DNA of 64,000 bases from a virus (IMGVR_UViG_3300009873_000081:1-64000); one strand, 5' to 3'; shown: positions 9,829 through 60,791, numbered from the stretch's first letter. Program-made: numbers and translations. The notes: generated by a model not told the origin, from the sequence alone.

Positions 9829-10536
9829 TTAATCTTTTGGAACAGCATGGCGATGCACAAAAAACACCGCCTCGCCGTCCATTTTCAGTAGTTTGTCCAA
9901 ATCCTTGAAGGTGATCTTGGCCGAGCCGTTTTCTCCCCAGGACAATCCCCACGAGTTTACCAAATTGACGCAACCTGCCGAAAGCTCGATTTGGTTGGCC
10001 AACAGACAGTGCCCGCCGATAATTTGTCCTGTCGGTCTGATAAAGCCTTTGGTATCCGGCTCCATCATGCCTTCCGTCCAGTAGAGACCGAGCACTGCCG
10101 GGCCATGATAGGCCAACCCTAAAAGCAGGTCAGCCAGTCCAAACGCCCAATAGTAACCTTCGTAGTAACCCAGACGCCTGCCGATTTTGACCCCTGCGAT
10201 AACGCTCGTTCCTTCATACTGCGGGTTGGCATTCGGATATGCGCCGCCTTCCCATTCATCTATCTTCTGTGCCTCCCAATAGATTTTCTCTTCAGCAAAC
10301 CGGTGGTCGATGCCCTTGCTTTCAGCCGGTCGTGCAATCAGTTCGTGTGCGATGCCGTGACCGACGCAACTTCCGGATTGACCTTGATCGAGCAAAGTCA
10401 TACAGCGCCAGGTATAACTTCGCAACGGCTTCTCACCAACCAAATCGCGCACGCGATAGTTTTTGCTTCTCTCGTCAAACTTGGGAATGCGCCCCAGACG
10501 AGGATCGGAAACCAATACGCCGTTTTTTAAAATCAC
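9829..10536 (-). CDS. papain-family (C1) cysteine peptidase
   Basis: DQGQSGSCVG, GGHC and NSWG triad motifs; start re-placed at GTG 10536 (GGAG RBS, GTGA overlap). Confidence 0.85.
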   Translation of the reverse strand: MILKNGVLVSDPRLGRIPKFDERSKNYRVRDLVGEKPLRSYTWRCMTLLDQGQSGSCVGHGIAHELIARPAESKGIDHRFAEEKIYWEAQKIDEWEGGAYPNANPQYEGTSVIAGVKIGRRLGYYEGYYWAFGLADLLLGLAYHGPAVLGLYWTEGMMEPDTKGFIRPTGQIIGGHCLLANQIELSAGCVNLVNSWGLSWGENGSAKITFKDLDKLLKMDGEAVFFVHRHAVPKD

Positions 10537-10796
10537 AAATTCTCCATCGTGTTCAAATGTTCGTCCATTTCTTTCGTTAATTTCAACAGATACTTTTGCG
10601 ATTCGCCAGCGTGGCACTTTGCCAGAACGGTTCTTAAGCTCATCCAGGTTTCTTGCATTTTCTTCAACTTTTTCTCTTGAACCTCATCATCGTAAGCGCC
10701 CTTTATTCTTCCTTTTGTTTTTAGAATCGCATAGCAAGTCAAAAATCCTATCCCAAAAAGCGCTCCCGCCAGTCCGAGAACTGGGAAGTATTCCAT
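10533..10796 (-). CDS. single-TM lysis-region protein (paralog of 11545..11850)
   Basis: N-terminal TM; shared C-terminal pattern with paralog. Confidence 0.6.
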   Translation of the reverse strand: MEYFPVLGLAGALFGIGFLTCYAILKTKGRIKGAYDDEVQEKKLKKMQETWMSLRTVLAKCHAGESQKYLLKLTKEMDEHLNTMENL

Positions 10797-11548
10797 TAAG
10801 CTAAAGTGATAAAGTCCCGATTTTTATAGCTTCTGATCTTTCTTTTTACACTGTCGCCGTCACGATACCCTGCCTCGTTGGTGTTGCCTTCTATCGAAAC
10901 AAAGTAATCATCACCAACTTCAATGACAATACCCGTATGCACCCAGTCCCTTTCGATTTTGCCTTTGGACAAAAACAAGCCTCCGATAATCTTTTCTTTT
11001 CTGTGTGAAGCATAAACGCTGCTGATGAATCTGTTTCCCATTTTTGCGCTTTGTGCCAAATCATCGCAGGAAAAAGTCCTGAGAACCGGCATTTCCATGC
11101 CTAATGTTTCGGCGGTCTGAGCGATGATAAAAGTGACGAATCCGGCACACCACGCCATTTCCTCGCCTTCGTTGCCGTCCATATACATTCTGACCCAGGG
11201 GCCTCGGTTGTTGCCGCCGACTTCTCGCGGGTTCTCAGCCAAATGCTGTTTGGCATAGGCGATAACCAATTCCGGCAGTGAACGTCCATCTTTGTAAAGC
11301 GGCGATACGGCATAATCAAGCGGTGCTTTAAGCAACGCAAAAGTCAAAGCGTCTACGACGCCGGTTGAAAGCAAGTCGTTCTTCCTCTGGAATTCTACTA
11401 CAGCGCGTCTTGTGGCCGGGCCATATAAGCCGTCAATCGAAACGTTATAACCCGCCAAAACCAAAAGCTCTTGGATCAATCTTGCGTCTTGATTTGGCTC
11501 TATGCTCCCATCAACCGGCAAAGAGACTTTCGGCAGATAAGGCTTCAT
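10796..11548 (-). CDS. endolysin: peptidoglycan-binding domain plus CHAP amidase
   Basis: IDGLYGPATRRAVVEFQ...GVVD; WCAGFV, HTGIV, IEGNT. Confidence 0.9.
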   Translation of the reverse strand: MKPYLPKVSLPVDGSIEPNQDARLIQELLVLAGYNVSIDGLYGPATRRAVVEFQRKNDLLSTGVVDALTFALLKAPLDYAVSPLYKDGRSLPELVIAYAKQHLAENPREVGGNNRGPWVRMYMDGNEGEEMAWCAGFVTFIIAQTAETLGMEMPVLRTFSCDDLAQSAKMGNRFISSVYASHRKEKIIGGLFLSKGKIERDWVHTGIVIEVGDDYFVSIEGNTNEAGYRDGDSVKRKIRSYKNRDFITLA

Positions 11549-11850
11549 CGTATTTTTGTTTTTCTCTTGTCAGATACTTCTAAAAGCTCATCAATTTCAG
11601 TACACAACAGGATCGCCGCAAAGTATTGCTTGGCTGACAATCCTGCCCGCCACGAACATAGCAAAGCTCGCAGCCCCAACCAAACACCTTGCAGCTTTTC
11701 CAAGCGTTCGCTTGAGGTTTTTGGCTCTGCTGGCTTGCCATAAAAATAAAGCATAAGCTTTACTTTGAATTTTACCGCAAGCCAATGAAACAGAGCGCCA
11801 AACAAAAAGCTCGTAGCGAGCAACACAATCGGAATAACTATATCTAACAA
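11545..11850 (-). CDS. single-TM lysis-region protein (paralog of 10533..10796)
   Basis: N-terminal TM; GGAGG RBS. Confidence 0.6.
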   Translation of the reverse strand: MLDIVIPIVLLATSFLFGALFHWLAVKFKVKLMLYFYGKPAEPKTSSERLEKLQGVWLGLRALLCSWRAGLSAKQYFAAILLCTEIDELLEVSDKRKTKIR

Positions 11851-11874: not shown

Positions 11875-12255
11875 TTAGGGTCGGGCAAACAGCTTGATTA
11901 AATCAGGTATCATCTGTGCCGCTTGCAAAACTCCAAAGATTATCAAAACCACAATGCCTATATTCTTGACTCTTTTGTAGTCTTTCACGTCATCAACTGA
12001 CAGAAGCCGACTTTCGATCTGCTCAAAGAACTTATCATGTTTGTCCAATCGGGTCGTCAATACTGCCAGCCGCTCCCGATGCTCCACGTCTTGCGCCATG
12101 CGTCCATTAAGCATAGCCTCCAAATGCTCGATCTTGCGGGTCTGGCGTTCAAGTTCGGCAAGTATGCGCTCATTGTAGGACTTTTGATATGAAAGCAGTT
12201 CTTGTTGGAAATTGTCCTTGTCCATATTTTCTAATGCTTTTCCTTCGCTACGCAA
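11875..12255 (-). CDS. coiled-coil protein with C-terminal TM (holin-like)
   Basis: heptad-rich N-terminus and C-terminal hydrophobic helix; likely start MDKD. Confidence 0.55.
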   Translation of the reverse strand: MRSEGKALENMDKDNFQQELLSYQKSYNERILAELERQTRKIEHLEAMLNGRMAQDVEHRERLAVLTTRLDKHDKFFEQIESRLLSVDDVKDYKRVKNIGIVVLIIFGVLQAAQMIPDLIKLFARP

Positions 12256-12656
12256 AACGTGAATCCGCTGCTATTCCATTTCAGACAGAACCATTCTATT
12301 TCTCTATATCCCCCGTCGCTGCACAAATATCTGTTGGTAAAGCCTAAAAGCGGCTTTTCTTTCATTGTTGCCGCCGCTTGGATCGTTTTCTGCCGGTCAT
12401 CCGGATGCACCAGTTCAAGCCAGGGTGTCGCAATCAGCTTTTCTTTTGTCCAGCCAAGCAGCCTCGGCCAGGCCTCGTTGAGTTTGATAAAAAAGCCTTT
12501 TTCGTTCGCAATGCAAACCAATTCATCCAGGCACTCAAACAGCGGCCAGACTAACTCGACTGTGTAGGCCGTTTCCAATTGGTGCGCCAGTTTTCTCATC
12601 TCCACCAGCCGCACCGCCGTATTCCTAACCTGTTCCATAAGAGGTGATCGTTTCAA
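12231..12656 (-). CDS. stand-alone PAS domain protein
   Basis: VCIANEKGFFIKLNEAWPRLLGWTKEKL...ELVHPDDR...NRYLCSDGGYREIEW is a textbook PAS fold signature. Confidence 0.85.
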   Translation of the reverse strand: MKRSPLMEQVRNTAVRLVEMRKLAHQLETAYTVELVWPLFECLDELVCIANEKGFFIKLNEAWPRLLGWTKEKLIATPWLELVHPDDRQKTIQAAATMKEKPLLGFTNRYLCSDGGYREIEWFCLKWNSSGFTFCVAKEKH

Positions 12657-12787
12657 GCCTACTCTTTACTTCTCTTTCTTTTTGACAGCCCAATAGCAAC
12701 AAAAGCCAGCAACAGCAGCAAATATTTTTCCAAGCTGCCGATGATCACGCGGTTGCGGGTTGGAACAGCGGCAGCTTCTAATTCATG

Positions 12788-14101
12788 TCAGTGAATTACG
12801 ATAATCCGTCTGCGCAATTGCATTTGTGATCCATGAAAAGCTGACCCTTGCCACTTCAGCCCCAAATAATCTTCAACGCTATGTGTCGCGAGGTCATAAT
12901 TTTTTTCAAGTGGGTTAACAATGAGAAGATTTGAGTAATTTGATACCGTATCATCAAAAGTTGAGCGTACCCTATAGATATAGTTAATTCCGGATGGAAG
13001 TATCAAGTTTGGTGGAAATGAATCAGTGAAAGTAGTATCATCCGCATCTGTTTTTGTTGCTATGAGATGGTCAGTTGGATATTGAAAATGCGAAGGAAGG
13101 TACTTTCGATAAAGCTTGTAGCCATCCGAACCGGCGACTTTATCCCACTTTACAGATATTGAATTTGGCGTGGTTTGTACAGTATCCAAATTCGTCGGGA
13201 CTAAACCATTGTACTGAATACCCGCCCATTTTTGATAAAGGTATTCCAACACACCAGAAATTGTTGCATCACTTTTTCTCCCCTCGAAAACTATCAATTC
13301 AAAAATATATCCGTCATAAGTCTGTGATGCCCCTGACAAATATCTTCCAAGTCTTGCATTACTTGCGTTACCGCTGGAATAATCACCTGCTGACGTATTG
13401 GCTGAATCTCTTTTAACTCCGTCAACGCGCAGCATATAATCAGGATTTGCAGTTTGATCATGAGTAACAACTACAAAGTTAATATTGCTGACCCAATCAG
13501 TTCCAGTAATTGACGTTCTATTAAGGGCAGGACTTCCAGTTCCGTCACCGATCTGAGTTAACCATCCGTCTGTTGCTTCTATAACTCTAAGATGCGCGCC
13601 AACGCCAAAATCCGCATCAGCGGTTGAAAAGATTGGCCCATCTGACAATGCCGATGCTTTAAAAACTACAAATGCAGTCCAATCCTTGCCACTTTGGTGC
13701 ATGAAATTATATAGACTGGTACTGCTATTGTGCATAATGTAATCTGATGCAACAAATAAAATCCCTGGCAATCCTGTTGCAGATATTCCAGTTTTAAACA
13801 GAGGTCGATTTCCTGCCGTAGCTTGCGTAAATGCCCCACCAACACTTCCCCAATTATAGGCGCTATCAATATTTGCATCTGCACTGTATGGATTAGCTGC
13901 ATTCCTCAGACTATCAGCTTTAATCCACAGCCTTAAAGAATCTAAAGTACTCGGTATTATTGGCGATTGCGAATAAACGCTTGATGAAATTAGAACAAAC
14001 AAAACAACGATATTTTTTTTCATTTTTGATCTCTGATAAATGTGCGTCTGCCCAAGTACCGCGACCGGCAGCAGCAGAAAAATTTTAAGACAAAGTTTCA
14101 T
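12788..14101 (-). CDS. LamG/concanavalin-like plus FN3 tail-associated protein with signal peptide(s)
   Basis: LWIKADS...YDGYIFELIVF...YLYQKW LamG pattern; PTNL...SISVKWDKV...YKLYR...YIYRVRS FN3 pattern. Confidence 0.75.
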   Translation of the reverse strand: MKLCLKIFLLLPVAVLGQTHIYQRSKMKKNIVVLFVLISSSVYSQSPIIPSTLDSLRLWIKADSLRNAANPYSADANIDSAYNWGSVGGAFTQATAGNRPLFKTGISATGLPGILFVASDYIMHNSSTSLYNFMHQSGKDWTAFVVFKASALSDGPIFSTADADFGVGAHLRVIEATDGWLTQIGDGTGSPALNRTSITGTDWVSNINFVVVTHDQTANPDYMLRVDGVKRDSANTSAGDYSSGNASNARLGRYLSGASQTYDGYIFELIVFEGRKSDATISGVLEYLYQKWAGIQYNGLVPTNLDTVQTTPNSISVKWDKVAGSDGYKLYRKYLPSHFQYPTDHLIATKTDADDTTFTDSFPPNLILPSGINYIYRVRSTFDDTVSNYSNLLIVNPLEKNYDLATHSVEDYLGLKWQGSAFHGSQMQLRRRIIVIH

Positions 14102-15087
14102 TAATCTTTCCTCGCAAAGATAGTCCCCCACAACTGCTTGGGATCATCTGCCACTGCTGTTATTCGCAAAAACACCGGAGCGTTAGCTGGAATCGTGGCG
14201 TCGTCAAAAGCGGTACTGACTTCGTAGTCATCGGCAACCATGCCTGAAGTCTCAATGTTCGTACCGCGAGTTCTGGGCGTGGTGTGAGCACGATGATCAA
14301 AGAAAATTGTTACTGTGCCGGTATTGGTTGTTACCCAGATTGAATCTATCGTAAAGGCATAAGGCTCGTGAGCGACCATAACCGAGTCGCCAACCAGAAC
14401 GGTATCAAGAAAAGAAAACTTGAAAGCGATCTGTTTCATCTTTGTTGGCAACGCGCTAAAAACACTGTCAGCGTTTTGCTGCGCCCAGTTGATCTGAGTA
14501 TCTGTAATCGTGTTGCTTGCCAACTTAGTCCCAACGATTGCCGCTGATGAATTGATGTCGGCATTGACGATGGTGTTGTTGGAAATCTCGGTGTTAGTCA
14601 CACCGCCGGTTGGTATTTTTATTCCTGCCGACGAGAGCGAAAGCGTCGTGCCGTCAATGTCGATCCGAAGCGAATCTACCGCCGTCGCTCCATTGACAAA
14701 TTCAAGTCCGGAAGCGCTTGCCCGCAAAACGCGAAGCGTATCAGCATCGGCTTTTACACCGTCCGAGCCTATAGCATTGAGTGTCACTGCCCCGGTTGTG
14801 CCACCGCCGCCAAGTCCTGTGCCTGCCGTTACCGCGGTAATATCGCCTGCACCAACCGCCGAGACTTCTGCTGCTGTCACCACACCACGCGCATCGACTG
14901 TCAACACATAATCCTCCGTTTGCGACTCGCCAAAACGAAAATTTGTGACCTTCACCGTGTCAACCGGATTGGCCTGGCTGATCGTATTTCCAGACTTTTG
15001 CCAAAGTCTTGACCACCCGCCCCAACCCTGAGCTTGCGCGATCTGCGGCAAAAGCAAAAACGCCAAAAGCAAAATTGTTTTTTTCAT
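14101..15087 (-). CDS. tail fibre-like protein with signal peptide
   Basis: GDITAVTAGTGLGGGGTTGAVTL fibre motif, I-x-N/T repeats; N-terminal MKKTILLLAFLLLPQIAQA-Q. Confidence 0.75.
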   Translation of the reverse strand: MKKTILLLAFLLLPQIAQAQGWGGWSRLWQKSGNTISQANPVDTVKVTNFRFGESQTEDYVLTVDARGVVTAAEVSAVGAGDITAVTAGTGLGGGGTTGAVTLNAIGSDGVKADADTLRVLRASASGLEFVNGATAVDSLRIDIDGTTLSLSSAGIKIPTGGVTNTEISNNTIVNADINSSAAIVGTKLASNTITDTQINWAQQNADSVFSALPTKMKQIAFKFSFLDTVLVGDSVMVAHEPYAFTIDSIWVTTNTGTVTIFFDHRAHTTPRTRGTNIETSGMVADDYEVSTAFDDATIPANAPVFLRITAVADDPKQLWGTIFARKD

Positions 15088-15088
15088 C

Positions 15089-17347
15089 TTATCTCACGAT
15101 TTTATAACGTAAAGTTCCGGTTAAATCCTTGTTGGCACTGTAGCGATTGGTTAGGTAGACTCGAATCGTGTCGGCAACAATGACATGACCACGCAGTTCA
15201 AAGAATCCCCCCGAAGATGAAGTTATTCCGGAAAACCCAACACTGACTGGATCGCCAACCTCCGCGCCTTTATAAACAACCGTCGTTGAATCGGTTGCAT
15301 CCTGCGCCAAATCACCGGGATTCCACGCAGTACTTTCCATCGGCCAATGCGTGAACATCTCCCGCCAAATGGCTCCGTCGTCGCTATAACTGTAAAACAT
15401 TGACCGCAGGCCGGAGTGAGTTCTTCTGTCTCTTCCATCGGAAAAAAAGAACTGGCCGTTTCCGCCACCGAGATTTTCTATATGGGTGGAGTCGGTAAAA
15501 AGAGTAAAAAGTTTTCGTCCGATCAGTGTGTCAGGGTCAACCAGATTTACTATTGTGTCTATGGCCGCGTCGCTGTTGGTGAACTGTATAAAATCGACGT
15601 TGGCAACGTTAATCTGAGCCGTGTCTTCCTTGAAAGCGAAGCGCCCTATATTGTGCGATCGGATTGGCCCCAATGCCGCGCTGATTGCCTCGCCGGCAGC
15701 AGAATTCGCAAAAACCCTTACAAATTCAATCGGCTTTTGGGGCAATGAGCGGAATCTCACGGTTCCGTCAGATCGAACGATCTCGCTATAGACGATTTGG
15801 GAGTCCCCAATTGAAGTATCCCAATTGTCAAATGCACGTGCGTCGATGATCGAGCGCGAGAACATTTGATGGCTGCCATCCCAAATTGTCGAGAAACCGT
15901 TTGCATTGCTACTGGTTTGACCTATTAGTTGAGTATAAATATTCTGTGGAGCGTAGGCCGATTCGTTATAAATCGCCTGTTCCAAATCGACTCTCGCCGT
16001 GAAATCCGTATGAATCCAGAACATCAGATTGCTGGCATCCGGCCCGAAATGAAAAGCACGGCTTCTCTTCGCTGAATCTGCGTCAAAAATCTCAAAGGTT
16101 AAATGTGCCCATAGATTCTCTGCTCTACCATTCAAGTAAAAGCCGGTAGTAGAATCTGTCAGTCCCATTGAAACATTACGCCAGGAGTTTTGGTAAACTG
16201 ACGGTGTGCCTGCGCCTGGAACTCCCGAAAGCTCACCAGTGCCGATTACTGCGATACCGACTGCGTTTCCACCCTCCTGAATTACTTTTGCATCCCCCAT
16301 CGCAGGAACGGCAATATGCTCGAAATTATTGTTGCGAAAAGATGAAAACGCTGCTGCTGCTGCATTAAAAATAATTGCGGTATCGCAGTTGATTAAGCGA
16401 AGAGATTCAAGATAGTTGTGTTCCGTCCAACCCTTCGCTGACGTGAACGTATTGTAGAAAAGAACGCCAGTGTTAAAATCCTGCATCTGGCAATTCTTAA
16501 CGGCTTGGAAGGTGACATTATTCAACGAGACGGCCACGCCATTACCGCGAGTGCCGATTTGACGAAAGCGGATTCCAGACACGACATTCATCGCCCGAAA
16601 AAATGAGTTGGAGCCTGGTGTTGTGCCATAGACTGTTAGAACAGTGTCGTTTGCCGTTGTGCTAATCGCCGCGCCTGCACCGTCAAGAAATATTTGTTTA
16701 TTGAGTCCATTAATCCTGATCGTGGTGTTCACCAGATAACCCGCTGTATCAGTTGTGACGCTTGCCAAGCTCGGCATCAACTTTACCGTCGATCCGACCG
16801 GAGCGGCGTCAATGGCCTTTTGAATTGCTGGCCCGGCATCGGCACTCAAGTCGTTCTTTGCGCCCCACCATTCCGGTCTGATCATGTCTAAGGCTGTTCC
16901 CGTAAATACTACTGTACCAGAGCCAGTAAACACCTGATACGGGCCAGCAAAAAAACTTCCTTCAATTCTTAAAGTCGTGCCCGAAGCCAGTGTAATCATA
17001 CCGCCTCTGTTAATCGACAGCGCGGCGGTTTGCCGGATTGTATCGGTTGCAGTAATGGACTCGTTGGTTGAGACGATCAATAGAGCGGTGTCAGCTTCGG
17101 CGCGGTTGATGGCGGCAGCTAAAGAACCGAAGTCGTCGGCTGAGTAGCCTCTTTGAATTCCTGCGGTAGTCAGTTCAACTAGCCGTTGAAAAATTTGGTC
17201 TTCAAACCAAGATTTAGAAGGCACAGTCTGGCCGCTAACTATTTGAGATAATTGAGCTTTGGTCTTGTCAATCAGATTTGGAAGCTGGCCAAAAACAGAT
17301 GTTGCGAGTAACAAGATTATAACTTGTGTTTTCCAGAGAATTTTCAT
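15089..17347 (-). CDS. tailspike / pectate-lyase-like beta-helix protein with signal peptide
   Basis: PEWWGAKND...AIQKAIDA beta-helix cap; G-x-I-x-AGPYQVF head motif; start re-placed at MKILWK. Confidence 0.8.
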   Translation of the reverse strand: MKILWKTQVIILLLATSVFGQLPNLIDKTKAQLSQIVSGQTVPSKSWFEDQIFQRLVELTTAGIQRGYSADDFGSLAAAINRAEADTALLIVSTNESITATDTIRQTAALSINRGGMITLASGTTLRIEGSFFAGPYQVFTGSGTVVFTGTALDMIRPEWWGAKNDLSADAGPAIQKAIDAAPVGSTVKLMPSLASVTTDTAGYLVNTTIRINGLNKQIFLDGAGAAISTTANDTVLTVYGTTPGSNSFFRAMNVVSGIRFRQIGTRGNGVAVSLNNVTFQAVKNCQMQDFNTGVLFYNTFTSAKGWTEHNYLESLRLINCDTAIIFNAAAAAFSSFRNNNFEHIAVPAMGDAKVIQEGGNAVGIAVIGTGELSGVPGAGTPSVYQNSWRNVSMGLTDSTTGFYLNGRAENLWAHLTFEIFDADSAKRSRAFHFGPDASNLMFWIHTDFTARVDLEQAIYNESAYAPQNIYTQLIGQTSSNANGFSTIWDGSHQMFSRSIIDARAFDNWDTSIGDSQIVYSEIVRSDGTVRFRSLPQKPIEFVRVFANSAAGEAISAALGPIRSHNIGRFAFKEDTAQINVANVDFIQFTNSDAAIDTIVNLVDPDTLIGRKLFTLFTDSTHIENLGGGNGQFFFSDGRDRRTHSGLRSMFYSYSDDGAIWREMFTHWPMESTAWNPGDLAQDATDSTTVVYKGAEVGDPVSVGFSGITSSSGGFFELRGHVIVADTIRVYLTNRYSANKDLTGTLRYKIVR

Positions 17348-17391: not shown

Positions 17392-18080
17392 CTATTCACA
17401 ACTTAAATCAACAGGGAATTGAACCATCGGCTGATTTTCGCTATCCACAACGTCATGACGCATATCAATAATACAGCGCTCCCATTCGTTTGTATACATC
17501 TGCACCAAGTTCATATTTGCAGCGCCGTTCATTTTCAGCACTTCCGCTGTAATTCCCTGAACATAGGGCATAAAGTAGCGTTCTGGTATTCCTATTGTAT
17601 CTTGATCACTGCTAATAGCGTCAGGGAAACCTGAATAGTGTATTTCAATCTCAAGTCCTGCCGTTGTCGGTGCATTACCGTTCTGATCGACCACACCGAT
17701 ATATCCGTAGATTCCCCGCCGTTCAACGTAGAAATGCCAATCAACCGTTGTGCCGCTTATGACGTTGCCGGTTCCTACCATATCCTGCAAGCGGATCACA
17801 TCTTCACGGGTGATCTTGCTGGCTAAAATATCATTGATGTGCACTTCCTTGATGTGCAAAATGTCCGCAGCAAGCTCGTAAGTTGCTTGATTGGCAACAG
17901 TTGTAATTGTTGCCGTAGCTGAAAGCAGGTTAGCACGACGCGCTGCTTCCATGCCTTTGAGGTTTATGAGATCATAAAGCAGTCTTCTTGGAATTTTAGT
18001 CCGGTTTACTCCAGCTTGACCAGCCATGATCTCGACCAAGTCACATAGAACACCGACATTCGTATAAGCGATTTTCTCAT
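17392..18080 (-). CDS. head-tail adaptor / tail tubular protein
   Basis: TITTVANQATYELAADILHIKEV...IPERY adaptor pattern; 5' end anomalous (see findings). Confidence 0.7.
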
Positions 18081-27100: not shown

Positions 27101-28138
27101 CTATTGTTTTGTCCAGCCTATATTGTCGCCAGAATTTAGCTCTTTTGTCCAGCGCTGCCGATCTATTAAGTCAGCGCCGATAGCTGTTGTGGTGTCGCCA
27201 ATCTCAGAAATCGGACTATCAAACCACCCGCCTGAGCCGATCACTTGATCCGAGTCCGGAGTTAAAGCCCGTTCAGCCAGATAGTTGCGCCAAACCATAA
27301 GCCGATGATTGGTTGGGTCGGTAAAGAGCAGCATTTCACCATAAGTCTTGATATAACCCGGCCCGGCTATATTTTCATTTCCAGTTCCGTTCGAACCTGC
27401 GGTTGTTTGTAAAGCCAGTGTTGCGGCAGCATAAACTTTTATCGAACTGGTTTCGCCCACATAAAGCACATGATCTTTAATTGCCACACCATAAGGTGTA
27501 GAGAGTCCGGTAATTTTGTCTCTATAGGCCATAATACCGTGACTATCCCATTTTAGCACACGAAAGTTGCCAACGTCAGAAATATAAAGCACTCGCTCGT
27601 GCACGTCGTAAGCGATCTGCTGCATATCCGAACCAAGCTGCTGATTGCCGGTTCCAGCACTGCCGGTTGCCTGCTCGATGCTCAAATCCGAGAGCTTGAT
27701 TCTTATAATTCTTCGATTGCCGCTATCAGCACACCACAAATATTGCCGGTTGGCTGAAAGTCCTGTTGGTGCTGAAAGCCCGGTGATTTGGTTGACATAA
27801 GCCAGATCACGAGCGCGGTGCAGCTTGATCCGATTATTGCCGGTATCGCTGATAAAAAGAAGCCCGGAGTCAGGATGATAAACAATATCTCGTGGACTGC
27901 TGAAACCGGTCGAGCCGGTTCCGGAAATCGGCAGCCCGGTCGATACGTTGATGTCGCCGTAATGCGCGACGAAGGCCAAGCCGTTTAGTTTGAGCTTCTT
28001 GATGCGGTTATTGCCCGAATCGCACACCCACACGAAGCGGCCATCCGTAGCTGCTCCGCGAGGTGTGTTGAACTCTTCGTCGTCATCGCCCGATGCTGTC
28101 CCGCCAAATTTCATCAAGTAGGCAAAATTGCTTGGCAT
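27101..28138 (-). CDS. NHL-repeat beta-propeller protein
   Basis: repeated F-x-x-P-x-G...DSGNNRI units. Confidence 0.85.
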   Translation of the reverse strand: MPSNFAYLMKFGGTASGDDDEEFNTPRGAATDGRFVWVCDSGNNRIKKLKLNGLAFVAHYGDINVSTGLPISGTGSTGFSSPRDIVYHPDSGLLFISDTGNNRIKLHRARDLAYVNQITGLSAPTGLSANRQYLWCADSGNRRIIRIKLSDLSIEQATGSAGTGNQQLGSDMQQIAYDVHERVLYISDVGNFRVLKWDSHGIMAYRDKITGLSTPYGVAIKDHVLYVGETSSIKVYAAATLALQTTAGSNGTGNENIAGPGYIKTYGEMLLFTDPTNHRLMVWRNYLAERALTPDSDQVIGSGGWFDSPISEIGDTTTAIGADLIDRQRWTKELNSGDNIGWTKQ

Positions 28139-28272: not shown

Positions 28273-28482
28273 CTAATTTTTAAGCCCCATCAACTCCATT
28301 ACTGTTGATTTAGCTTCTTCTTCGCTCTTAGCAACGATAGTTTTGTCTTTTCCAGGTTCGCCATAATAGCAGCGAATAATGTAGCCATTCTCAGCAGGCT
28401 CCACATGCAAGCTTTTATGCTGCATCGACGGCACACCTGAGATTGAATAAGAGCTTTTCTTGGCGCTTTTATGCTTTGGCAT
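28273..28482 (-). CDS. hypothetical protein
   Basis: VEPAENGYII motif; AAGGAG RBS. Confidence 0.6.
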   Translation of the reverse strand: MPKHKSAKKSSYSISGVPSMQHKSLHVEPAENGYIIRCYYGEPGKDKTIVAKSEEEAKSTVMELMGLKN

Positions 28483-29236
28483 TGGAAGCTCCTTGTCTTT
28501 TCATCATGAAGTCGCCCTGATTTCTGGCGAATTGTCCGACAGTTTTGGTTTGCGGCTCATTAACTGCGCCTGAGACCAAAAGCTGAATTTGCTGCTGTAC
28601 AAACTGATTTACAAAATTAGCCTGCTCGAAATCGCTCTTATCACCGCGCATTCTTCTCAGCTTGATCTCGGCCATTAGTACGATCAGATCATGCAAAATA
28701 GGATTAAGCTCGCAAGTCGTAATAACTTGGTCTCTTGCTGTGCCGCTGGCAGTAGTGCCGAGTGTAAAGGGCATCCCAATATAGGTAACGATCAAGTTTA
28801 TCGGGTAGGAACCGACACTGACCAGCAAATAGAGCTTGCCGCCTGATATGTAGCAGCGTGGGTCGCGGGTCGTGCCTTCAAAGTAGCGGTTTTCCGTAAT
28901 GCCCAGTTTGCTGGCAGCAACCCTTTCGACCCATCTTGTATAGCCATCCTGATCAGTAAAACGCGCATTAACGAAACCGTTTCGGAGAAAATAACGTTCT
29001 TGAATCTGACTGCCCAAATCAACACCGGTTGAGTCAATTGCGATTGTCTTTTCTTCTTCGATTTCAGAAAGCAAAGTAAACACATCTTGAAACTTTTGCT
29101 GAAAGCCTAGCAGCATTTGCACTAATTCGCGTTGCGCGGCGTTGAGCGCTTCGAGCTTGACTGTCGAACTCCAAACTTCTGAATTTGGATCGTTCAACAA
29201 GTTTCCAAGAGATGTCAACATTTCAGATGCAGTCAT
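28469..29236 (-). CDS. head-tail adaptor / tail tubular protein A
   Basis: WS...EALNAAQREL and CELNPILHDLIV motifs. Confidence 0.7.
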   Translation of the reverse strand: MTASEMLTSLGNLLNDPNSEVWSSTVKLEALNAAQRELVQMLLGFQQKFQDVFTLLSEIEEEKTIAIDSTGVDLGSQIQERYFLRNGFVNARFTDQDGYTRWVERVAASKLGITENRYFEGTTRDPRCYISGGKLYLLVSVGSYPINLIVTYIGMPFTLGTTASGTARDQVITTCELNPILHDLIVLMAEIKLRRMRGDKSDFEQANFVNQFVQQQIQLLVSGAVNEPQTKTVGQFARNQGDFMMKRQGASNAKA

Positions 29237-29730
29237 TTGTGCCTTTGCTTTATCAGCTTGTATTGGCTGCGATAATAAAAATCTTCACTCACGACCTGCA
29301 CGACATAATCAAATCCTGCCGCACGCAACAGGTACTTTTCATCTTTTCCAACATCAATTAAACTTGAGAGCCAGTTGAAGCATTCAGGCTCAGATTCAAA
29401 AATCGGCGAGAGACCGAACTCTTTATCTGTCAACTTGCATTTCGGCACACCTATGCGCAGGCGGTAGTTTATGGTTGAATCAGGCATCTTCCAGCGCAAA
29501 AGCAAATGCTCAGTCGTTCTTACTGTGCTGGTGTTCAATGTTTGCCAGTTCTTAAAGCCCACGTCGATGATTTTAGTGCCAAATGGAACTTCAAAAAGCA
29601 GGGTATCGCCAAAGTCTGCTTCTTGAGCTTGGACACTGCCGACAAATATAAAAACGGCGGCCAGCAGGTCTCTTACCAGCCGCCGCCCAGGGTATGGATG
29701 GGTCAGATGGAGCTTAAAAAGTCTCGCCAT
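29233..29730 (-). CDS. hypothetical, possibly secreted protein
   Basis: LLAAVFIFVGSVQA-Q signal-like segment; start uncertain. Confidence 0.45.
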   Translation of the reverse strand: MARLFKLHLTHPYPGRRLVRDLLAAVFIFVGSVQAQEADFGDTLLFEVPFGTKIIDVGFKNWQTLNTSTVRTTEHLLLRWKMPDSTINYRLRIGVPKCKLTDKEFGLSPIFESEPECFNWLSSLIDVGKDEKYLLRAAGFDYVVQVVSEDFYYRSQYKLIKQRHK

Positions 29731-35342: not shown

Positions 35343-36659
35343 TTAGCCTGTAATCCCGAAGATAACCGCGTGAGCATCCGGGAAAGTGCGCCACAAACCG
35401 TTTTGGCAATAAATCTCATTGACTTCGGTATGAGCACCCGGATTTTGCACGTTGGTCTTTACGGTCACGTCGATGTAGTTCATCAATTTCATATACTCCA
35501 TGTCCACGATAATCGCGTCCATCGAGTACTCATTTAGCGAGGTTGCCTGATCGGTCAAAAGCGGATGGCGATGCAAAAGCGCAATGCCATGACCAAGCTC
35601 AAGCTGCATGACCGTCCAGCCATAGCGTTGGCTGTACTCATCGTTGACCGTGATGAACTTTTCCAGCGCGTTGTAGAGCACCGAGAAGAATTTGCCGCCA
35701 ACAAACCAGTGCTTGATTTGTTGGGCGTTGCCATAGCGATAGATGATCTCAGTTTTCTCGCGGAGCAGATCGAGCGAGAAAGCGCCGCCAAAGTCGATCA
35801 AGCGGGAAACACCGTCAAGTGCTGTAGACGCGCCAGGAACAAACTCAACAATACCGCCTGTCATCCAAAGCGTCGAGCCTTGTGATTGGGTGATCTTGGA
35901 TTTACGACCGAAGAAATACGCCCATTCTTTCTGACGGAAAAAATCAGTGCGCTTCATTGCAGCGCGTTGGGCTGGAGAAAGTTTGCCATAAACATCAAGC
36001 GGCTTTTCCGAGTCAGTAACGCCCCAGGTCTTGGAGAAGAACTGGCAATAGTTCTGCACGTCGGTTGGCTCATGGCTGATCGGGTTGGGAGCATTCCCCC
36101 CGTCAGCAAGAGCGTTGCCCATGTGAATGAGCTTGTAGGTTGTGGCCAGTTGGGTGGGAGATGCCGGACTGTTGCCGTTTCCACGAAGAACACGCACACT
36201 GGCCGTACCCGAAGCCAGACCAGACAGCGTAACTTGCTGCACGATCATAGTTTCAGGCGCATAGCCGGAAGCGTATTTTGTGGTGGAATAGTTTGCGCCG
36301 GTAGCATCGCAAAAAAGATCGGGGCACTGGAGGACATCACCAGCCTGCAAGAACAGGGCTTGCGCGTCAGTGATGCCTATAATATCGGAGAGTGAGCCAG
36401 AGCTTGATGCAGACGCCGTAGCAATATCGAACTTGACCGGCGTTTCCTGCATGGTAAGCACTTTTGGCTCCGGATCACTGACTTGCACGGTTTTCATCTC
36501 CATACGCAAGATGTTGTCCAACTTGGCGTAGGAGCGTTCCTGCATAACGATCAGGTCACTAAGCGAGTATTTACGCTTAGTGGTATACATATCGGCGACG
36601 CCCATTGCGCCCTGCTTGACGAATTGGGCTGCGCCTTGTGTTGCACTAAAAGCTGCCAT
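35343..36659 (-). CDS. major capsid protein (DUF5309/SU10-like)
   Basis: NYCQFFSKTWGVT, EWAYFFG, MTGGI, HRHPLL, HAVIFGIT; follows scaffold. Confidence 0.85.
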   Translation of the reverse strand: MAAFSATQGAAQFVKQGAMGVADMYTTKRKYSLSDLIVMQERSYAKLDNILRMEMKTVQVSDPEPKVLTMQETPVKFDIATASASSSGSLSDIIGITDAQALFLQAGDVLQCPDLFCDATGANYSTTKYASGYAPETMIVQQVTLSGLASGTASVRVLRGNGNSPASPTQLATTYKLIHMGNALADGGNAPNPISHEPTDVQNYCQFFSKTWGVTDSEKPLDVYGKLSPAQRAAMKRTDFFRQKEWAYFFGRKSKITQSQGSTLWMTGGIVEFVPGASTALDGVSRLIDFGGAFSLDLLREKTEIIYRYGNAQQIKHWFVGGKFFSVLYNALEKFITVNDEYSQRYGWTVMQLELGHGIALLHRHPLLTDQATSLNEYSMDAIIVDMEYMKLMNYIDVTVKTNVQNPGAHTEVNEIYCQNGLWRTFPDAHAVIFGITG

Positions 36660-37879: not shown

Positions 37880-38092
37880 TCAAGTAATTTTTCCTGTTGG
37901 CGAATGTAAAACCCGTTTAGGCAAAAAAGTCACACCTTCACGGTCAGTTGTAAACTCAATTGAGCCGGAAGCTTTGGCGCTCTCACGCTCCTCGATATAG
38001 TTGGCAAGCTCGATCAAAAGCGCCAATTTGTGCGTATTGAAACGTTCGAGCTTGGCTAAAAGAAATTCACGAGAATAAGTCATTGCTCTCAA
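37880..38092 (-). CDS. hypothetical protein
   Basis: ORF coupled to upstream gene. Confidence 0.5.
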   Translation of the reverse strand: MRAMTYSREFLLAKLERFNTHKLALLIELANYIEERESAKASGSIEFTTDREGVTFLPKRVLHSPTGKIT

Positions 38093-38595
38093 TACCCGTA
38101 AGGACGGCTAATATGCAGTTCTACCCTTATTCGACAGGCTGCGGAGAGACCCGCATAAACATTAACTCTCGCTCCTTGACATGGCGGCAAATCCGCAATG
38201 GCACTGATGTCATAAGTGCTGTCGGCATCGGTTGCGCCCCAATCATACAAGTTCACAATATCCACGCTGTCACGATCAGCGGCGCTTGATCTTACCAATG
38301 CGTTTTCCACTTTGTCAAAATACAAAGGCTCTATTGAGATGGTCAGGCTGTCGGAATCTTCCACGCCCGCTGCTGCCGTATCAATATAAGCAACTGCCTG
38401 TACAACGCCGCTATAGTTGGTGTTGATTGACGTTCGTGGCAGCAAGAAAATAAAGAATGTGTCCGACTCTGCTGTCAATTCCGTCCAATTAAGCCCGGTC
38501 GGATTGCTGGTCGGGTAGAGCATCGTCACCTGCTGAGCGCTGCAAATAACCGGCAGCATGAACAGTGTTAAGAAAAGTAAATTTGATTTTTTCAT
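38089..38595 (-). CDS. secreted beta-sandwich protein
   Basis: MKKSNLLFLTLFMLPVICSA-QQ signal peptide. Confidence 0.65.
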   Translation of the reverse strand: MKKSNLLFLTLFMLPVICSAQQVTMLYPTSNPTGLNWTELTAESDTFFIFLLPRTSINTNYSGVVQAVAYIDTAAAGVEDSDSLTISIEPLYFDKVENALVRSSAADRDSVDIVNLYDWGATDADSTYDISAIADLPPCQGARVNVYAGLSAACRIRVELHISRPYGY

Positions 38596-60281: not shown

Positions 60282-60791
60282 ATGAACACGCTTTATAAAA
60301 TCACTCTGCTGCTTTTTTGCACACAAAGCTTTGCCCAAACCCGCTTTGTTGTTCGACCTGATGAAGTCGGGTTTGTCATGCTAAAATGCAAAACCGATTC
60401 GCTTCAAATAAGCATTATGGATGTCTCGGGAGAGGAAAATCAGATTACTATTTTAGCCGTACCATACGTACTCAAAAGCAACTTCAACGAGGATTCTTTG
60501 GAGCTTTGGTATCACATCTGTAAAGACGATACTGCCTTTTACAGCCAAATCACCAAAGCTCCAACAAATAGAAAGTTTTTGTCAAGCCTCAACGAAATTA
60601 AAAAGGGTCGAGCGCCTAAAGGCGACTTGCCTTTTGTCGCACAATCCCACTTATCTACAACCATCTTGAGATTTTCAATTGATCCAGGAAGAAAGTCCCG
60701 GTTTCAAGATGGCTCGACAGTTGGGGCTTATTTCGATATACAGACAGATAGCACTGGCAGCATAATTAAAATCTGGAAAAAGAAGCAGTAG
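60282..60791 (+). CDS. secreted protein
   Basis: MNTLYKITLLLFCTQSFA-Q signal peptide. Confidence 0.6.
   Translation: MNTLYKITLLLFCTQSFAQTRFVVRPDEVGFVMLKCKTDSLQISIMDVSGEENQITILAVPYVLKSNFNEDSLELWYHICKDDTAFYSQITKAPTNRKFLSSLNEIKKGRAPKGDLPFVAQSHLSTTILRFSIDPGRKSRFQDGSTVGAYFDIQTDSTGSIIKIWKKKQ

What the first reader, a model, noticed from the sequence alone, without database searches (positions are those of the whole stretch)
12788..17347. All three receptor-binding-type proteins carry Sec signal peptides
Seen: the tailspike (MKILWKTQVIILLLATSVFG-Q), fibre (MKKTILLLAFLLLPQIAQA-Q) and LamG-FN3 protein all have classical signal peptides, as does the gene after the portal (38089..38595) and possibly 29233..29730. 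All have Gln at +1. Known: tailed phages normally assemble in the cytoplasm from signal-less proteins, and +1 Gln (pyroglutamate) is typical of Bacteroidota-related secreted proteins. Inferred: an extracytoplasmic maturation pathway in which fibres fold in the periplasm and attach at lysis, or are displayed or secreted to block superinfection.
Basis: partly seen in the sequence, partly recalled or inferred. Interest (0 to 1): 0.78.

Follow-up and report, generated by a model that had tools for sequence, protein, structure and literature searches.

The report
Phage tail fibres carrying export signals
An uncultured 104-kb short-tailed phage, probably of a Bacteroidota-type host, puts that host's secretion signal and many of its sugar-attachment motifs on its tailspike, its fibre and four other late proteins, so this host-recognition gear seems to mature in the periplasm, not in the cytoplasm where tailed-phage particles are built.

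Summary
Genes A (15089-17347), B (14101-15087) and C (12788-14101) each begin with a Sec/signal-peptidase-I type leader cut before Gln. That gives 7 sites in 6 proteins, all with Gln at +1.

Three results add to it.
- These six proteins alone are enriched in the Bacteroidota periplasmic O-glycosylation sequon D-S/T-(A/I/L/V/M/T): 37 seen against 9.9 expected (z 8.8). The other 102 proteins have 54 against 58.5, and control motifs are flat.
- In A's family, leader and sequon enrichment go together. This holds in six related loci. A leaderless relative that starts exactly at the cleavage site has no enrichment.
- A has a tailspike fold, sits where T7 has its fibre gene, and has a conserved N-terminal module on variable bodies. 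Its relatives lie beside an SU10-adaptor-like gene in six phage contexts.

Export is well supported. Whether A and B then join the virion at lysis or act as free envelope enzymes is still open. In cultured Cellulophaga phage phi18:3, three tail-end proteins with such leaders are annotated from virion MS/MS.

This scan has noted the same phenomenon in at least ten other phage genomes. I found no paper that describes it.

The parts
15089..17347 (-). Gene A: 752-aa tailspike-like protein. It has a leader (aa 1-20), a conserved N-terminal module (aa 21-~165), a right-handed beta-helix (~158-480) and C-terminal beta-sandwich domains.
   Evidence: AF2 model with mean pLDDT 80.5. Foldseek top hits are phage tailspikes: Sf6, Kp32gp38, phiAB6, Det7, HK620. 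It is a mosaic: aa 55-166 are 55% identical to P0002, aa 153-685 are 30% identical to P0003, and aa 675-752 are 35% identical to the P0002 C-terminus. Sequons: 13 against 3.6 expected, z 5.5.
17288..17347 (-). Leader of A: MKILWKTQVIILLLATSVFG, cut before Gln21.
   Evidence: The model shows an isolated low-confidence helix at aa 2-17. Homologues carry equivalent leaders followed by the motif Q-x-x-N/L-x-x-x-KT-x-x-QL.
14101..15087 (-). Gene B: 328-aa fibre-like protein. It has a leader (aa 1-19), a mature N-terminus QGWGGW, a GDITAVTAGTGLGGGG fibre repeat and a ~120-aa C-terminal domain.
   Evidence: Close homologues P0006-P0009 all have a leader with Gln at +1. Distant ones are leaderless Pelagibacter podophage structural proteins. 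Sequons: 7 against 2.35 expected, z 3.2.
15031..15087 (-). Leader of B: MKKTILLLAFLLLPQIAQA, cut before Gln20.
12788..14101 (-). Gene C: 437-aa concanavalin/LamG-like (lead only) protein with an Ig/FN3-like tail. It has two tandem leaders and ends ...RRRIIVIH-TGA.
   Evidence: Atlas neighbours are Laminin_G_3. PHROG gives weak hits to the Ig-like ends of major tail proteins at aa 286-380. Sequons: 7 against 2.2 expected, z 3.3.
14051..14101 (-). First leader of C: MKLCLKIFLLLPVAVLG|Q. Its start overlaps B's stop (TAATG).
   Evidence: It matches the leaders of C-like genes in L005 (MRTFLKIFFALLPALALG|Q) and L006 (MKRILFLLLLPVVVLG|Q).
13970..14023 (-). Second leader of C: MKKNIVVLFVLISSSVYS|Q, in frame 26 codons after the first.
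12659..12787 (-). Remnant of a C-terminal membrane anchor, in frame after C's TGA stop: ...RNRVIIGSLEKYLLLLLAFVAIGLSKRKRSKE.
   Evidence: It matches the anchors of C-like proteins in L005 and L004. TGA is an ordinary stop here, ending 33 of 108 ORFs.
17392..18039 (-). SU10-adaptor-family paralogue directly upstream of A. It has no leader and no sequon excess. It is the proposed docking partner of A's N-terminal module.
   Evidence: Pfam PF24175, E 2.6e-13. A gene of the same family lies beside A-family genes in L007, L010, L014, the P0139 contig and L015.
28469..29236 (-). Second SU10-adaptor-family gene, at the canonical head-to-tail adaptor position.
   Evidence: Pfam PF24175, E 1.2e-7.
38089..38595 (-). 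168-aa protein after the portal gene, with leader MKKSNLLFLTLFMLPVICSA|QQ.
   Evidence: Sequons: 4 against 1.0 expected, z 3.05.
29233..29730 (-). 165-aa protein with a long n-region and LLAAVFIFVGSVQA|QE. This is a probable leader or signal anchor.
   Evidence: Sequons: 2 against 0.46 expected, z 2.4.
60282..60791 (+). 169-aa protein outside the structural module, with leader MNTLYKITLLLFCTQSFA|QT.
   Evidence: It has 4 sequons in 169 aa.
10796..11850 (-). Lysis genes downstream of the cassette: a holin-like transmembrane protein (11545-11850) and an endolysin with a PG_binding_1 domain (10796-11548).

Best explanation
A, B and C, and three further small late proteins, are genuine substrates of the host's Sec pathway.

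Proposed route:
- The leader takes them across the inner membrane.
- Host signal peptidase I cuts before a Gln, which the host glutaminyl cyclase turns into pyroglutamate (the Bacteroidetes Q-rule).
- Their many D-S/T-hydrophobic sequons are O-glycosylated by the host's general periplasmic glycosylation system.

A is a tailspike-type beta-helix enzyme and B is a fibre. They are most likely the phage's receptor-binding proteins. The particle is built in the cytoplasm and carries the leaderless SU10-adaptor-like protein encoded just upstream of A. It would meet the periplasmic pool of matured spikes only when the holin opens the inner membrane. The conserved mature N-terminal module of A (Q-LPNLIDKTKAQLSQI..., then a helix and a small solenoid) would then dock on that adaptor.

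Shown: the leaders, Gln at +1, the sequon enrichment limited to leader-bearing proteins, the tailspike fold, the synteny, and the modularity.

Inferred: actual export, cleavage and glycosylation (strong inference), and joining the virion after export (moderate inference). The confidence given is for the whole chain. For export and processing alone I put about 0.85.
For: - Leaders with Gln at +1 at 7 of 7 sites in 6 proteins.
- Sequon D[ST][AILVMT]: 37 against 9.9 expected in the six leader proteins (z 8.8). The 24 leaderless structural proteins have 22 against 23.2, and all 102 leaderless proteins have 54 against 58.5. Control motifs are flat, and D[ST] followed by a non-permitted residue is depleted, 6 against 14.1.
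- Within A's family, observed/expected is 2.27 for the 52 members with leader plus Gln, 1.17 for the 72 leaderless members, and 1.24 for the 24 with other leaders.
- The pattern recurs gene by gene in L003, L004, L006, L007, L010 and L014.
- The leaderless relative P0242 starts MAQVYLKNL..., exactly at the cleavage point. It follows an adaptor-like gene and has 1 sequon against 3.3 expected.
- The motif is glycosylated only on non-cytoplasmic proteins, in the periplasm (PMC12871550).
- Virion role: tailspike fold. T7-like gene order: adaptor, nozzle-like 634 aa, gp14/15/16-like 203/403/903 aa, then A, then lysis genes.
- A conserved N-module sits on exchanged bodies.
- An SU10-adaptor-family gene lies beside an A-family gene in six phage contexts.
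- P0003 combines an A-like body with a B-like end.
- No internal start codon could give a leaderless A that keeps the conserved motif.
- Cellulophaga phage phi18:3 gp085-087 carry Q-rule leaders and are annotated as virion or tail proteins from MS/MS.
Against: - No experiment. SignalP was not run, so leader calls rest on my own heuristic.
- No route by which a periplasmic protein joins a cytoplasmic tailed-phage particle has been described.
- P0002 has the same leader, N-module and C-terminal domain but sits in a cellular-looking locus (peptidase M19, Ser/Thr kinase-nSTAND, PEGA). So the N-module is not exclusive to virions.
- C-like proteins in L004 and L005 end in a transmembrane anchor, and C here has a cut-off anchor. 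At least that member looks like an inner-membrane protein rather than a virion part.
- The phi18:3 proteins are not homologous to A-C and show no sequon excess. MS/MS of purified particles can also pick up co-purifying proteins.
- The host is unknown. One relative was binned with a KSB1 MAG.
Confidence: 0.5

Rival explanations
1. The proteins are exported but not part of the virion. A, B and C are secreted or periplasmic accessory proteins built from tail-fibre parts: a polysaccharide depolymerase, a fibre-like binder and a lectin-like membrane protein. They would remodel or strip the host envelope during infection to block superinfection, to stop progeny sticking to debris, or to help release. 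The true receptor-binding protein would be elsewhere, for example the NHL-repeat protein at 27101-28138 or the nozzle.
For: - All the export evidence applies equally.
- The cellular homologue P0002 has the same architecture.
- C-like proteins have membrane anchors.
- Bacterial secreted tailspike-like enzymes exist: WceF (PMC7949094) and RbmB, which is among the fold hits.
- The cassette lies directly before the lysis genes.
- Q-rule proteins of unknown function in P. gingivalis phages were read in this way (PMC10367356).
Against: - No leaderless fibre or spike candidate was found in the tail module. The NHL protein is conserved rather than variable between G000 and L007.
- A sits at the T7 fibre position, next to an adaptor-family gene, in six contexts.
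- The same N-module occurs without a leader in a phage with the same gene order.
- A conserved head on variable bodies is the usual signature of virion-attached spikes.
Confidence: 0.33
2. The leaders are not used for export. The hydrophobic N-termini would stay on the proteins, or serve as membrane tethers or assembly tags on the cytoplasmic side, and the fibres would be assembled in the cytoplasm as in other tailed phages.
For: Cytoplasmic assembly is the rule for tailed phages, and authors have treated the lack of signal peptides as a mark of phage origin (PMC6199706). I could not run a trained predictor.
Against: - Gln at +1 at 7 of 7 sites has no reason to exist without cleavage by signal peptidase I.
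- Sequon enrichment confined to these proteins has no reason to exist without periplasmic exposure.
- Leaders are conserved in form but not in sequence across homologues.
- The leaderless relative starts exactly at the predicted cut.
Confidence: 0.07
3. The proteins are cargo of the type IX secretion system, or lipoproteins displayed on the infected cell's surface.
For: The host type is Bacteroidota-like. Some structural neighbours of C in the Atlas carry Por_Secre_tail domains.
Against: Pfam finds no Por_Secre_tail or other C-terminal sorting domain in A, B or C. None of the leaders has a lipobox Cys at +1.
Confidence: 0.04

Closest known systems
Leader-bearing tail-end proteins gp085, gp086 and gp087 of cultured Cellulophaga phage phi18:3 (NC_021794, Pachyviridae)
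   Same: Three consecutive late genes lie just before the lysis genes of a Bacteroidota podovirus. All start with Q-rule leaders (..FGYS|Q..GVSA|Q..GLNA|Q). The record annotates them as virion, structural or tail proteins from MS/MS of particles.
   Different: There is no detectable sequence similarity to A, B or C. They have no sequon enrichment, with 1 seen against about 3 expected each. I found no paper in the library that discusses their leaders.
Q-rule signal-peptide proteins of Porphyromonas gingivalis phages (Matrishin et al. 2023, PMC10367356), and the Q-rule itself (Bochtler et al. 2018, PMC5837995, cited from that paper's reference list and not read here)
   Same: Phage-encoded proteins with signal peptidase I leaders that expose Gln at +1, read as adaptation to the Bacteroidota secretion machinery.
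   Different: Those were five proteins of unknown function, proposed to modify the host outer membrane. Here the leader-bearing proteins are the tailspike and fibre at the receptor-binding locus, and they also carry the glycosylation signature.
Classical phage tailspikes and depolymerases (Sf6, HK620, P22 gp9, phiAB6, Klebsiella phage depolymerases) and the T7 gp17 fibre
   Same: A right-handed beta-helix body, a gene position after the internal core proteins, and a conserved particle-side head on exchangeable bodies.
   Different: To my knowledge those are made without leaders and assemble in the cytoplasm. A's family in Bacteroidota-type phages has a cleavable leader and sequon enrichment.
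Substrates of the Bacteroidota general O-glycosylation system (review PMC12871550)
   Same: Non-cytoplasmic proteins enriched in D-S/T-(A/I/L/V/M/T). About half of non-cytoplasmic Bacteroidota proteins carry the motif.
   Different: The known substrates are cellular proteins. The review does not mention phage (0 occurrences).
Bacterial secreted tailspike-like enzymes: Pantoea WceF (PMC7949094) and Vibrio RbmB
   Same: A tailspike fold behind an export signal, acting on the cell's own polysaccharide. The cellular homologue P0002 fits this picture.
   Different: They are chromosomal genes in polysaccharide loci, not genes at the fibre position of a phage tail operon beside an adaptor gene.

Membership tests
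Sec / signal peptidase I (type I) signal peptides | A positively charged n-region, an uncharged hydrophobic core of 8-15 residues, and small residues at -3 and -1 | tested here: met
   My own heuristic on all 162 ORFs. A, B, C (twice), 38089-38595 and 60282-60791 pass. 29233-29730 passes only if a long n-region is allowed. No trained predictor such as SignalP was available.
Sec / signal peptidase I (type I) signal peptides | Actual translocation and cleavage | not testable with these tools
   This needs reporter fusions or N-terminal sequencing.
Bacteroidetes Q-rule substrates | Gln at +1 of the signal peptidase I site | tested here: met
   7 of 7 sites. The chance is about 2e-10 at 4.15% Gln. 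It also holds in homologues P0002-4, P0006-9 and P0127-P0131, and in 35 of the 74 leader-bearing hits among the 147 scanned.
Bacteroidota general O-glycosylation substrates | A non-cytoplasmic protein carrying D-S/T-(A/I/L/V/M/T) sequons | tested here: met
   37 against 9.9 expected in the leader proteins and flat elsewhere. Control motifs are flat. The result recurs in related loci and across the family.
Bacteroidota general O-glycosylation substrates | Glycan attached at the sequon | not testable with these tools
   This needs glycoproteomics.
Phage tailspike / depolymerase | A right-handed parallel beta-helix body | tested here: met
   AF2 model with pLDDT 80.5. 81 PDB matches at E<=1e-3, led by phage tailspikes. 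TM-scores are modest, 0.3-0.48 when normalised by target length.
Phage tailspike / depolymerase | Attachment to the virion through the N-terminal domain | tested here: inconclusive
   There is a conserved N-module on variable bodies, and an adaptor-family gene lies beside the gene in six contexts. But the module also occurs in a cellular locus.
Phage tailspike / depolymerase | Homotrimer; catalytic acidic residues | not tested
   Only a monomer model was made. No active site was assigned.
Pfam PF24175 SU10_adaptor (neighbour genes 17392-18039 and 28469-29236) | Score above the Pfam gathering cut-off (27 bits) | tested here: met
   51.3 bits and 32.8 bits.
Type IX secretion cargo | A C-terminal sorting domain (Por_Secre_tail or CHU_C type) | tested here: not met
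   No Pfam family at E<=0.01 in A, B or C. None at E<=1 in C and C-like proteins.
Bacterial lipoproteins (signal peptidase II) | A lipobox with Cys at +1 | tested here: not met
   Every site has Gln at +1.
Laminin_G_3 / concanavalin-like lectin fold (gene C) | A match to PF13385 or a confident jelly-roll model | tested here: inconclusive
   Pfam finds nothing. The PDB profile search finds nothing. My AF2 model has pLDDT 41. Atlas feature neighbours are all Laminin_G_3 at 0.93, and structure neighbours have TM about 0.5.

The most novel reading that the evidence does not exclude
Tailed phages of Bacteroidota-type hosts route their receptor-binding spikes and fibres through the host's Sec pathway. 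The proteins would be capped with pyroglutamate and coated with the host's own O-glycan in the periplasm. They would then be fitted onto cytoplasm-built particles only when the holin opens the membrane. This would be a two-compartment assembly line, not described for any tailed phage, that gives virions a host-made sugar coat on their most exposed parts.
Probability: 0.4. Interest if true: 0.9.

Novelty: new variant of a known kind. Interest (0 to 1): 0.72.

Why it matters
Tailed-phage particles are taken to be built entirely in the cytoplasm from proteins without leaders, and the lack of signal peptides has even been used as an argument for phage origin (PMC6199706). A whole class of Bacteroidota phages may instead send its host-recognition proteins through the periplasm, where they would be trimmed, capped and glycosylated by host enzymes. 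That would have several consequences.
- It adds a new step to virion assembly.
- It would mean that virions of gut, soil and marine Bacteroidota phages can carry host-type glycans. That bears on immune recognition, stability and host range.
- It affects how such fibres should be expressed for phage engineering or depolymerase production: with their leader, in a Bacteroidota host.
- It gives annotators a simple rule. A leader, Gln at +1 and sequon enrichment at the fibre locus together point to a Bacteroidota-type host.
- If the proteins prove to be free enzymes instead, they are a new class of phage-encoded envelope-remodelling factors built from fibre parts.

Tried and rejected
- The AF2 model of C from a 4-sequence alignment was unusable, with pLDDT 41.
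- Pfam found nothing in A, B or C, nor in C-like proteins at E<=1. The PDB profile search with C found nothing.
- tblastn of A, B and C against 50,697 phage records gave no match.
- Two scans of IMG/VR, one with the adaptor and one with the A-family alignment, gave no relative.
- Two alignments (A2, A3) were too divergent for locus scans.
- The genome-contig scan gave only three loci. Two were short and one was a KSB1-binned phage fragment, so the host stays unassigned.
- TGA recoding to explain the in-frame anchor after C's stop is rejected, because TGA ends 33 of 108 ORFs.
- A leaderless isoform of A from an internal start is rejected. The next start codon after the leader is GTG at codon 42, beyond the conserved motif.
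- T9SS cargo and lipoprotein readings are rejected (see the membership tests).
- Fold or composition bias as the cause of the sequon excess is rejected. Leaderless members of the same family and control motifs are flat.
- Literature searches found no paper describing leader-bearing tail fibres. The library is limited to open-access papers.


Full report
WHAT THE DNA IS. The window is the first 64 kb of a single 103,994-bp contig. Its minus strand carries a late operon. It holds a large terminase (41069-42733), a portal (38603-40657) and a major capsid protein (35343-36659). A sugar/methyl-transferase block follows. Then comes an SU10-adaptor-family gene (28469-29236), an NHL-repeat protein (27101-28138) and a 634-aa protein whose position and N-terminus recall the T7 nozzle (my reading, not tested). 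After these come three proteins of 203, 403 and 903 aa in the place of T7 gp14/15/16, with a weak T7_gp14 hit. A second SU10-adaptor-family gene follows (17392-18039, PF24175, E 2.6e-13), and then the three genes of the finding. After them come a small PAS protein, holin-like transmembrane proteins, an endolysin and a peptidase. From my knowledge of the T7 genome, A sits where T7 has its tail-fibre gene.

THE OBSERVATION. SignalP was not available. I therefore scanned all 162 ORFs of the genome with a simple von Heijne-type rule. The soluble high scorers are A, B, C (twice), 38089-38595 and 60282-60791, and 29233-29730 qualifies if a long n-region is allowed. All seven predicted cuts expose Gln. 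Gln is 4.15% of the proteome, so this would happen by chance about 2e-10 of the time. None has a lipobox Cys. The three genes are tightly packed. A's stop is one base from B's ATG, and B's TAA overlaps C's first ATG as TAATG.

WHAT THE PROTEINS ARE.
- A: an AF2 model built from 58 sequences has mean pLDDT 80.5. It shows an N-terminal lone helix (the leader), a long helix, a small three-rung solenoid (aa ~70-150, pLDDT above 93), a large beta-helix, and beta-sandwich domains at the end. Foldseek against the PDB is led by phage tailspikes and depolymerases: Sf6, Kp32gp38, phiAB6, Det7 and HK620. Vibrio RbmB is also among the hits.
- A is a mosaic. Its N-module is 55% identical to P0002, its body is 30% identical to P0003, and its last 80 residues are 35% identical to P0002.
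- B shares its GDITAVTAGTGLGGGG repeat with 'structural proteins' of Pelagibacter podophages. Those start MAGYTRQ and have no leader. B's close relatives P0006-P0009 all have a leader with Gln at +1.
- C has no Pfam match even at E<=1, and my model of it failed. ESM Atlas neighbours are concanavalin/Laminin_G_3 proteins, with fn3 as a weaker lead. The 'LamG-FN3' label is therefore a lead, not a result.

CONSERVATION OF THE LEADERS. An exhaustive HMMER search with A found 3104 relatives. I scanned 147 of the best 150. By my rule 74 carry a leader, and 35 of those have Gln at +1. A looser classifier counted 52. The leaders differ in sequence, but a conserved motif follows them directly: Q-x-x-(Y)L-x-N-L-x-x-KT-x-x-Q-L/I.

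Related loci show the same cassette.
- L006 has A-like, B-like and C-like genes in a row, each with a leader and Gln.
- L007 is a syntenic relative. It has the NHL, nozzle-like, core and adaptor genes, then a leader-bearing spike with the same N-module on a different body, then a leader-bearing B-like gene.
- L010 is a P22-portal-type podovirus fragment. An adaptor-family gene there overlaps the start of a leader-bearing A-like gene.
- L014 and the P0139 contig also place A-family genes next to adaptor-family genes.
- L004 and L005 are other phage types. They have leader-bearing B-like genes and C-like genes between the tail genes and the lysis genes.

A SECOND SIGNATURE OF EXPORT. Bacteroidota glycosylate Ser/Thr in the motif D-S/T-(A/I/L/V/M/T). 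This happens only on non-cytoplasmic proteins, and the glycan is transferred in the periplasm (PMC12871550). I counted the motif against shuffles of each protein.
- A: 13 against 3.6.
- B: 7 against 2.35.
- C: 7 against 2.2.
- 38089-38595: 4 against 1.0.
- No leaderless protein reached a comparable excess.

Pooled, the six leader proteins have 37 against 9.9 (z 8.8). The 24 leaderless structural proteins have 22 against 23.2. All 102 leaderless proteins have 54 against 58.5. E-S/T-hydrophobic, N-S/T-hydrophobic, the reversed motif and D-hydrophobic-S/T are all at expectation in the leader set. D-S/T followed by a non-permitted residue is depleted, 6 against 14.1.

The excess is not a property of the fold. 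Within A's family, observed/expected is 2.27 for members with leader plus Gln, 1.17 for leaderless members and 1.24 for members with other leaders. It recurs gene by gene in L003, L004, L006, L007, L010 and L014, where leaderless head and tail proteins are flat.

The cleanest natural control is P0242. It belongs to A's family, follows an adaptor-like gene, starts MAQVYLKNLANKT exactly at the predicted cleavage point, and has stop codons upstream in frame. It has 1 sequon against 3.3 expected. I reached this result before I looked at earlier notes of the scan, which report similar sequon findings on other genomes.

HOW IT MOST LIKELY WORKS. Export, cleavage before Gln and periplasmic glycosylation are a strong inference from two independent signatures. 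I put this at about 0.85. The open question is the fate of the proteins afterwards.

In favour of a virion role for A and B:
- The T7-like position of A, and the tailspike fold.
- A conserved head on exchanged bodies.
- An adaptor-family gene lies beside an A-family gene in six phage contexts, one of them leaderless.
- P0003 fuses an A-like body to a B-like end.
- I found no leaderless fibre candidate in the tail module.
- No internal start codon could make a leaderless A that keeps the conserved motif.
- In cultured Cellulophaga phage phi18:3, gp085, gp086 and gp087 start with Q-rule leaders and are annotated as virion or tail proteins 'based on experimental MS/MS proteomics'.

Against a virion role:
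- No such assembly route is known.
- P0002 carries the same leader, N-module and end domain in a cellular-looking locus.
- C-like proteins end in a membrane anchor.

My best reading is that the spikes mature in the periplasm and dock on the adaptor-bearing particle once the holin has opened the inner membrane. C and the small leader proteins may be membrane or periplasmic helpers. I give the full chain 0.5 and the 'exported but free' rival 0.33.

COMPARISON WITH WHAT IS KNOWN. The Q-rule and the O-glycosylation system are established host features. Phage-encoded Q-rule proteins of unknown function were noted in P. gingivalis phages (PMC10367356). Secreted bacterial tailspike-like enzymes are known (WceF, PMC7949094). 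I found no paper that describes leader-bearing tailspikes or fibres, or phage substrates of the Bacteroidota glycosylation system. The 2025 review of that system does not mention phage. This scan has recorded the same phenomenon on at least ten other phage genomes. That makes it a recurrent feature of this host group and not an oddity of this contig.

VERDICT. I rate this a new variant of a known kind: a tailspike and fibre carrying a host export signal and a host glycosylation signature. Interest is 0.72.

Noticed in passing
window 12659-14101 (minus strand): Gene C looks like a cassette recombined into an older C-like gene. It keeps the resident leader (start at 14101) in front of its own leader (start at 14023). 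After its TGA stop the same frame runs on for 42 codons that encode the resident gene's transmembrane anchor and basic tail. C-like proteins share a C-terminal RRR-x-I-x-I motif before the anchor. The motif is also seen at the end of the 484-aa gene in L014.
   Followed up: partly
window 17392-18039 and 28469-29236: The phage has two SU10-adaptor-family genes. One is at the usual head-to-tail position and a paralogue lies directly before the tailspike. The P0139 contig likewise has two, flanking its spike gene. The paralogue may be a spike-specific docking protein.
   Followed up: partly
L001:10001-12283 (P0002): A 760-aa protein has the same leader type, N-module and C-terminal domain as A, but a different Pect-lyase/GH28-type beta-helix. 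It sits in a cellular-looking locus (peptidase M19, Ser/Thr kinase-nSTAND, PEGA). It may be a domesticated tailspike or the source of the module.
   Followed up: partly
L004:11400-12906: Downstream of the B-like/C-like pair, a siphovirus-type contig encodes two lipobox proteins. The 323-aa one has 7 sequons against 1.5 expected (z 5.1). Sequon enrichment therefore also marks phage lipoproteins near the lysis genes.
   Followed up: no
window 12231-12656: A 141-aa PAS-domain protein (PAS_3, E 4e-11) lies between the exported cassette and the holin-like genes. This is an unusual item for a phage lysis region.
   Followed up: no
window 9829-10617: A 262-aa peptidase (phrog_16701, E 1.5e-50) follows the endolysin at the end of the late operon. 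Its role in lysis or in processing is unknown.
   Followed up: no
It ends at the start of the possible leader protein 29233-29730. If the phage also glycosylates proteins in the cytoplasm, its virion could carry two kinds of glycan.
   Followed up: no
L010 (contig WFVT01000375.1): A phage fragment with a P22-type portal, capsid, adaptor-like gene and leader-bearing spike is binned in a candidate division KSB1 MAG. Either it was mis-binned, or the Q-rule and sequon signature extends beyond Bacteroidota within the FCB group.
   Followed up: no
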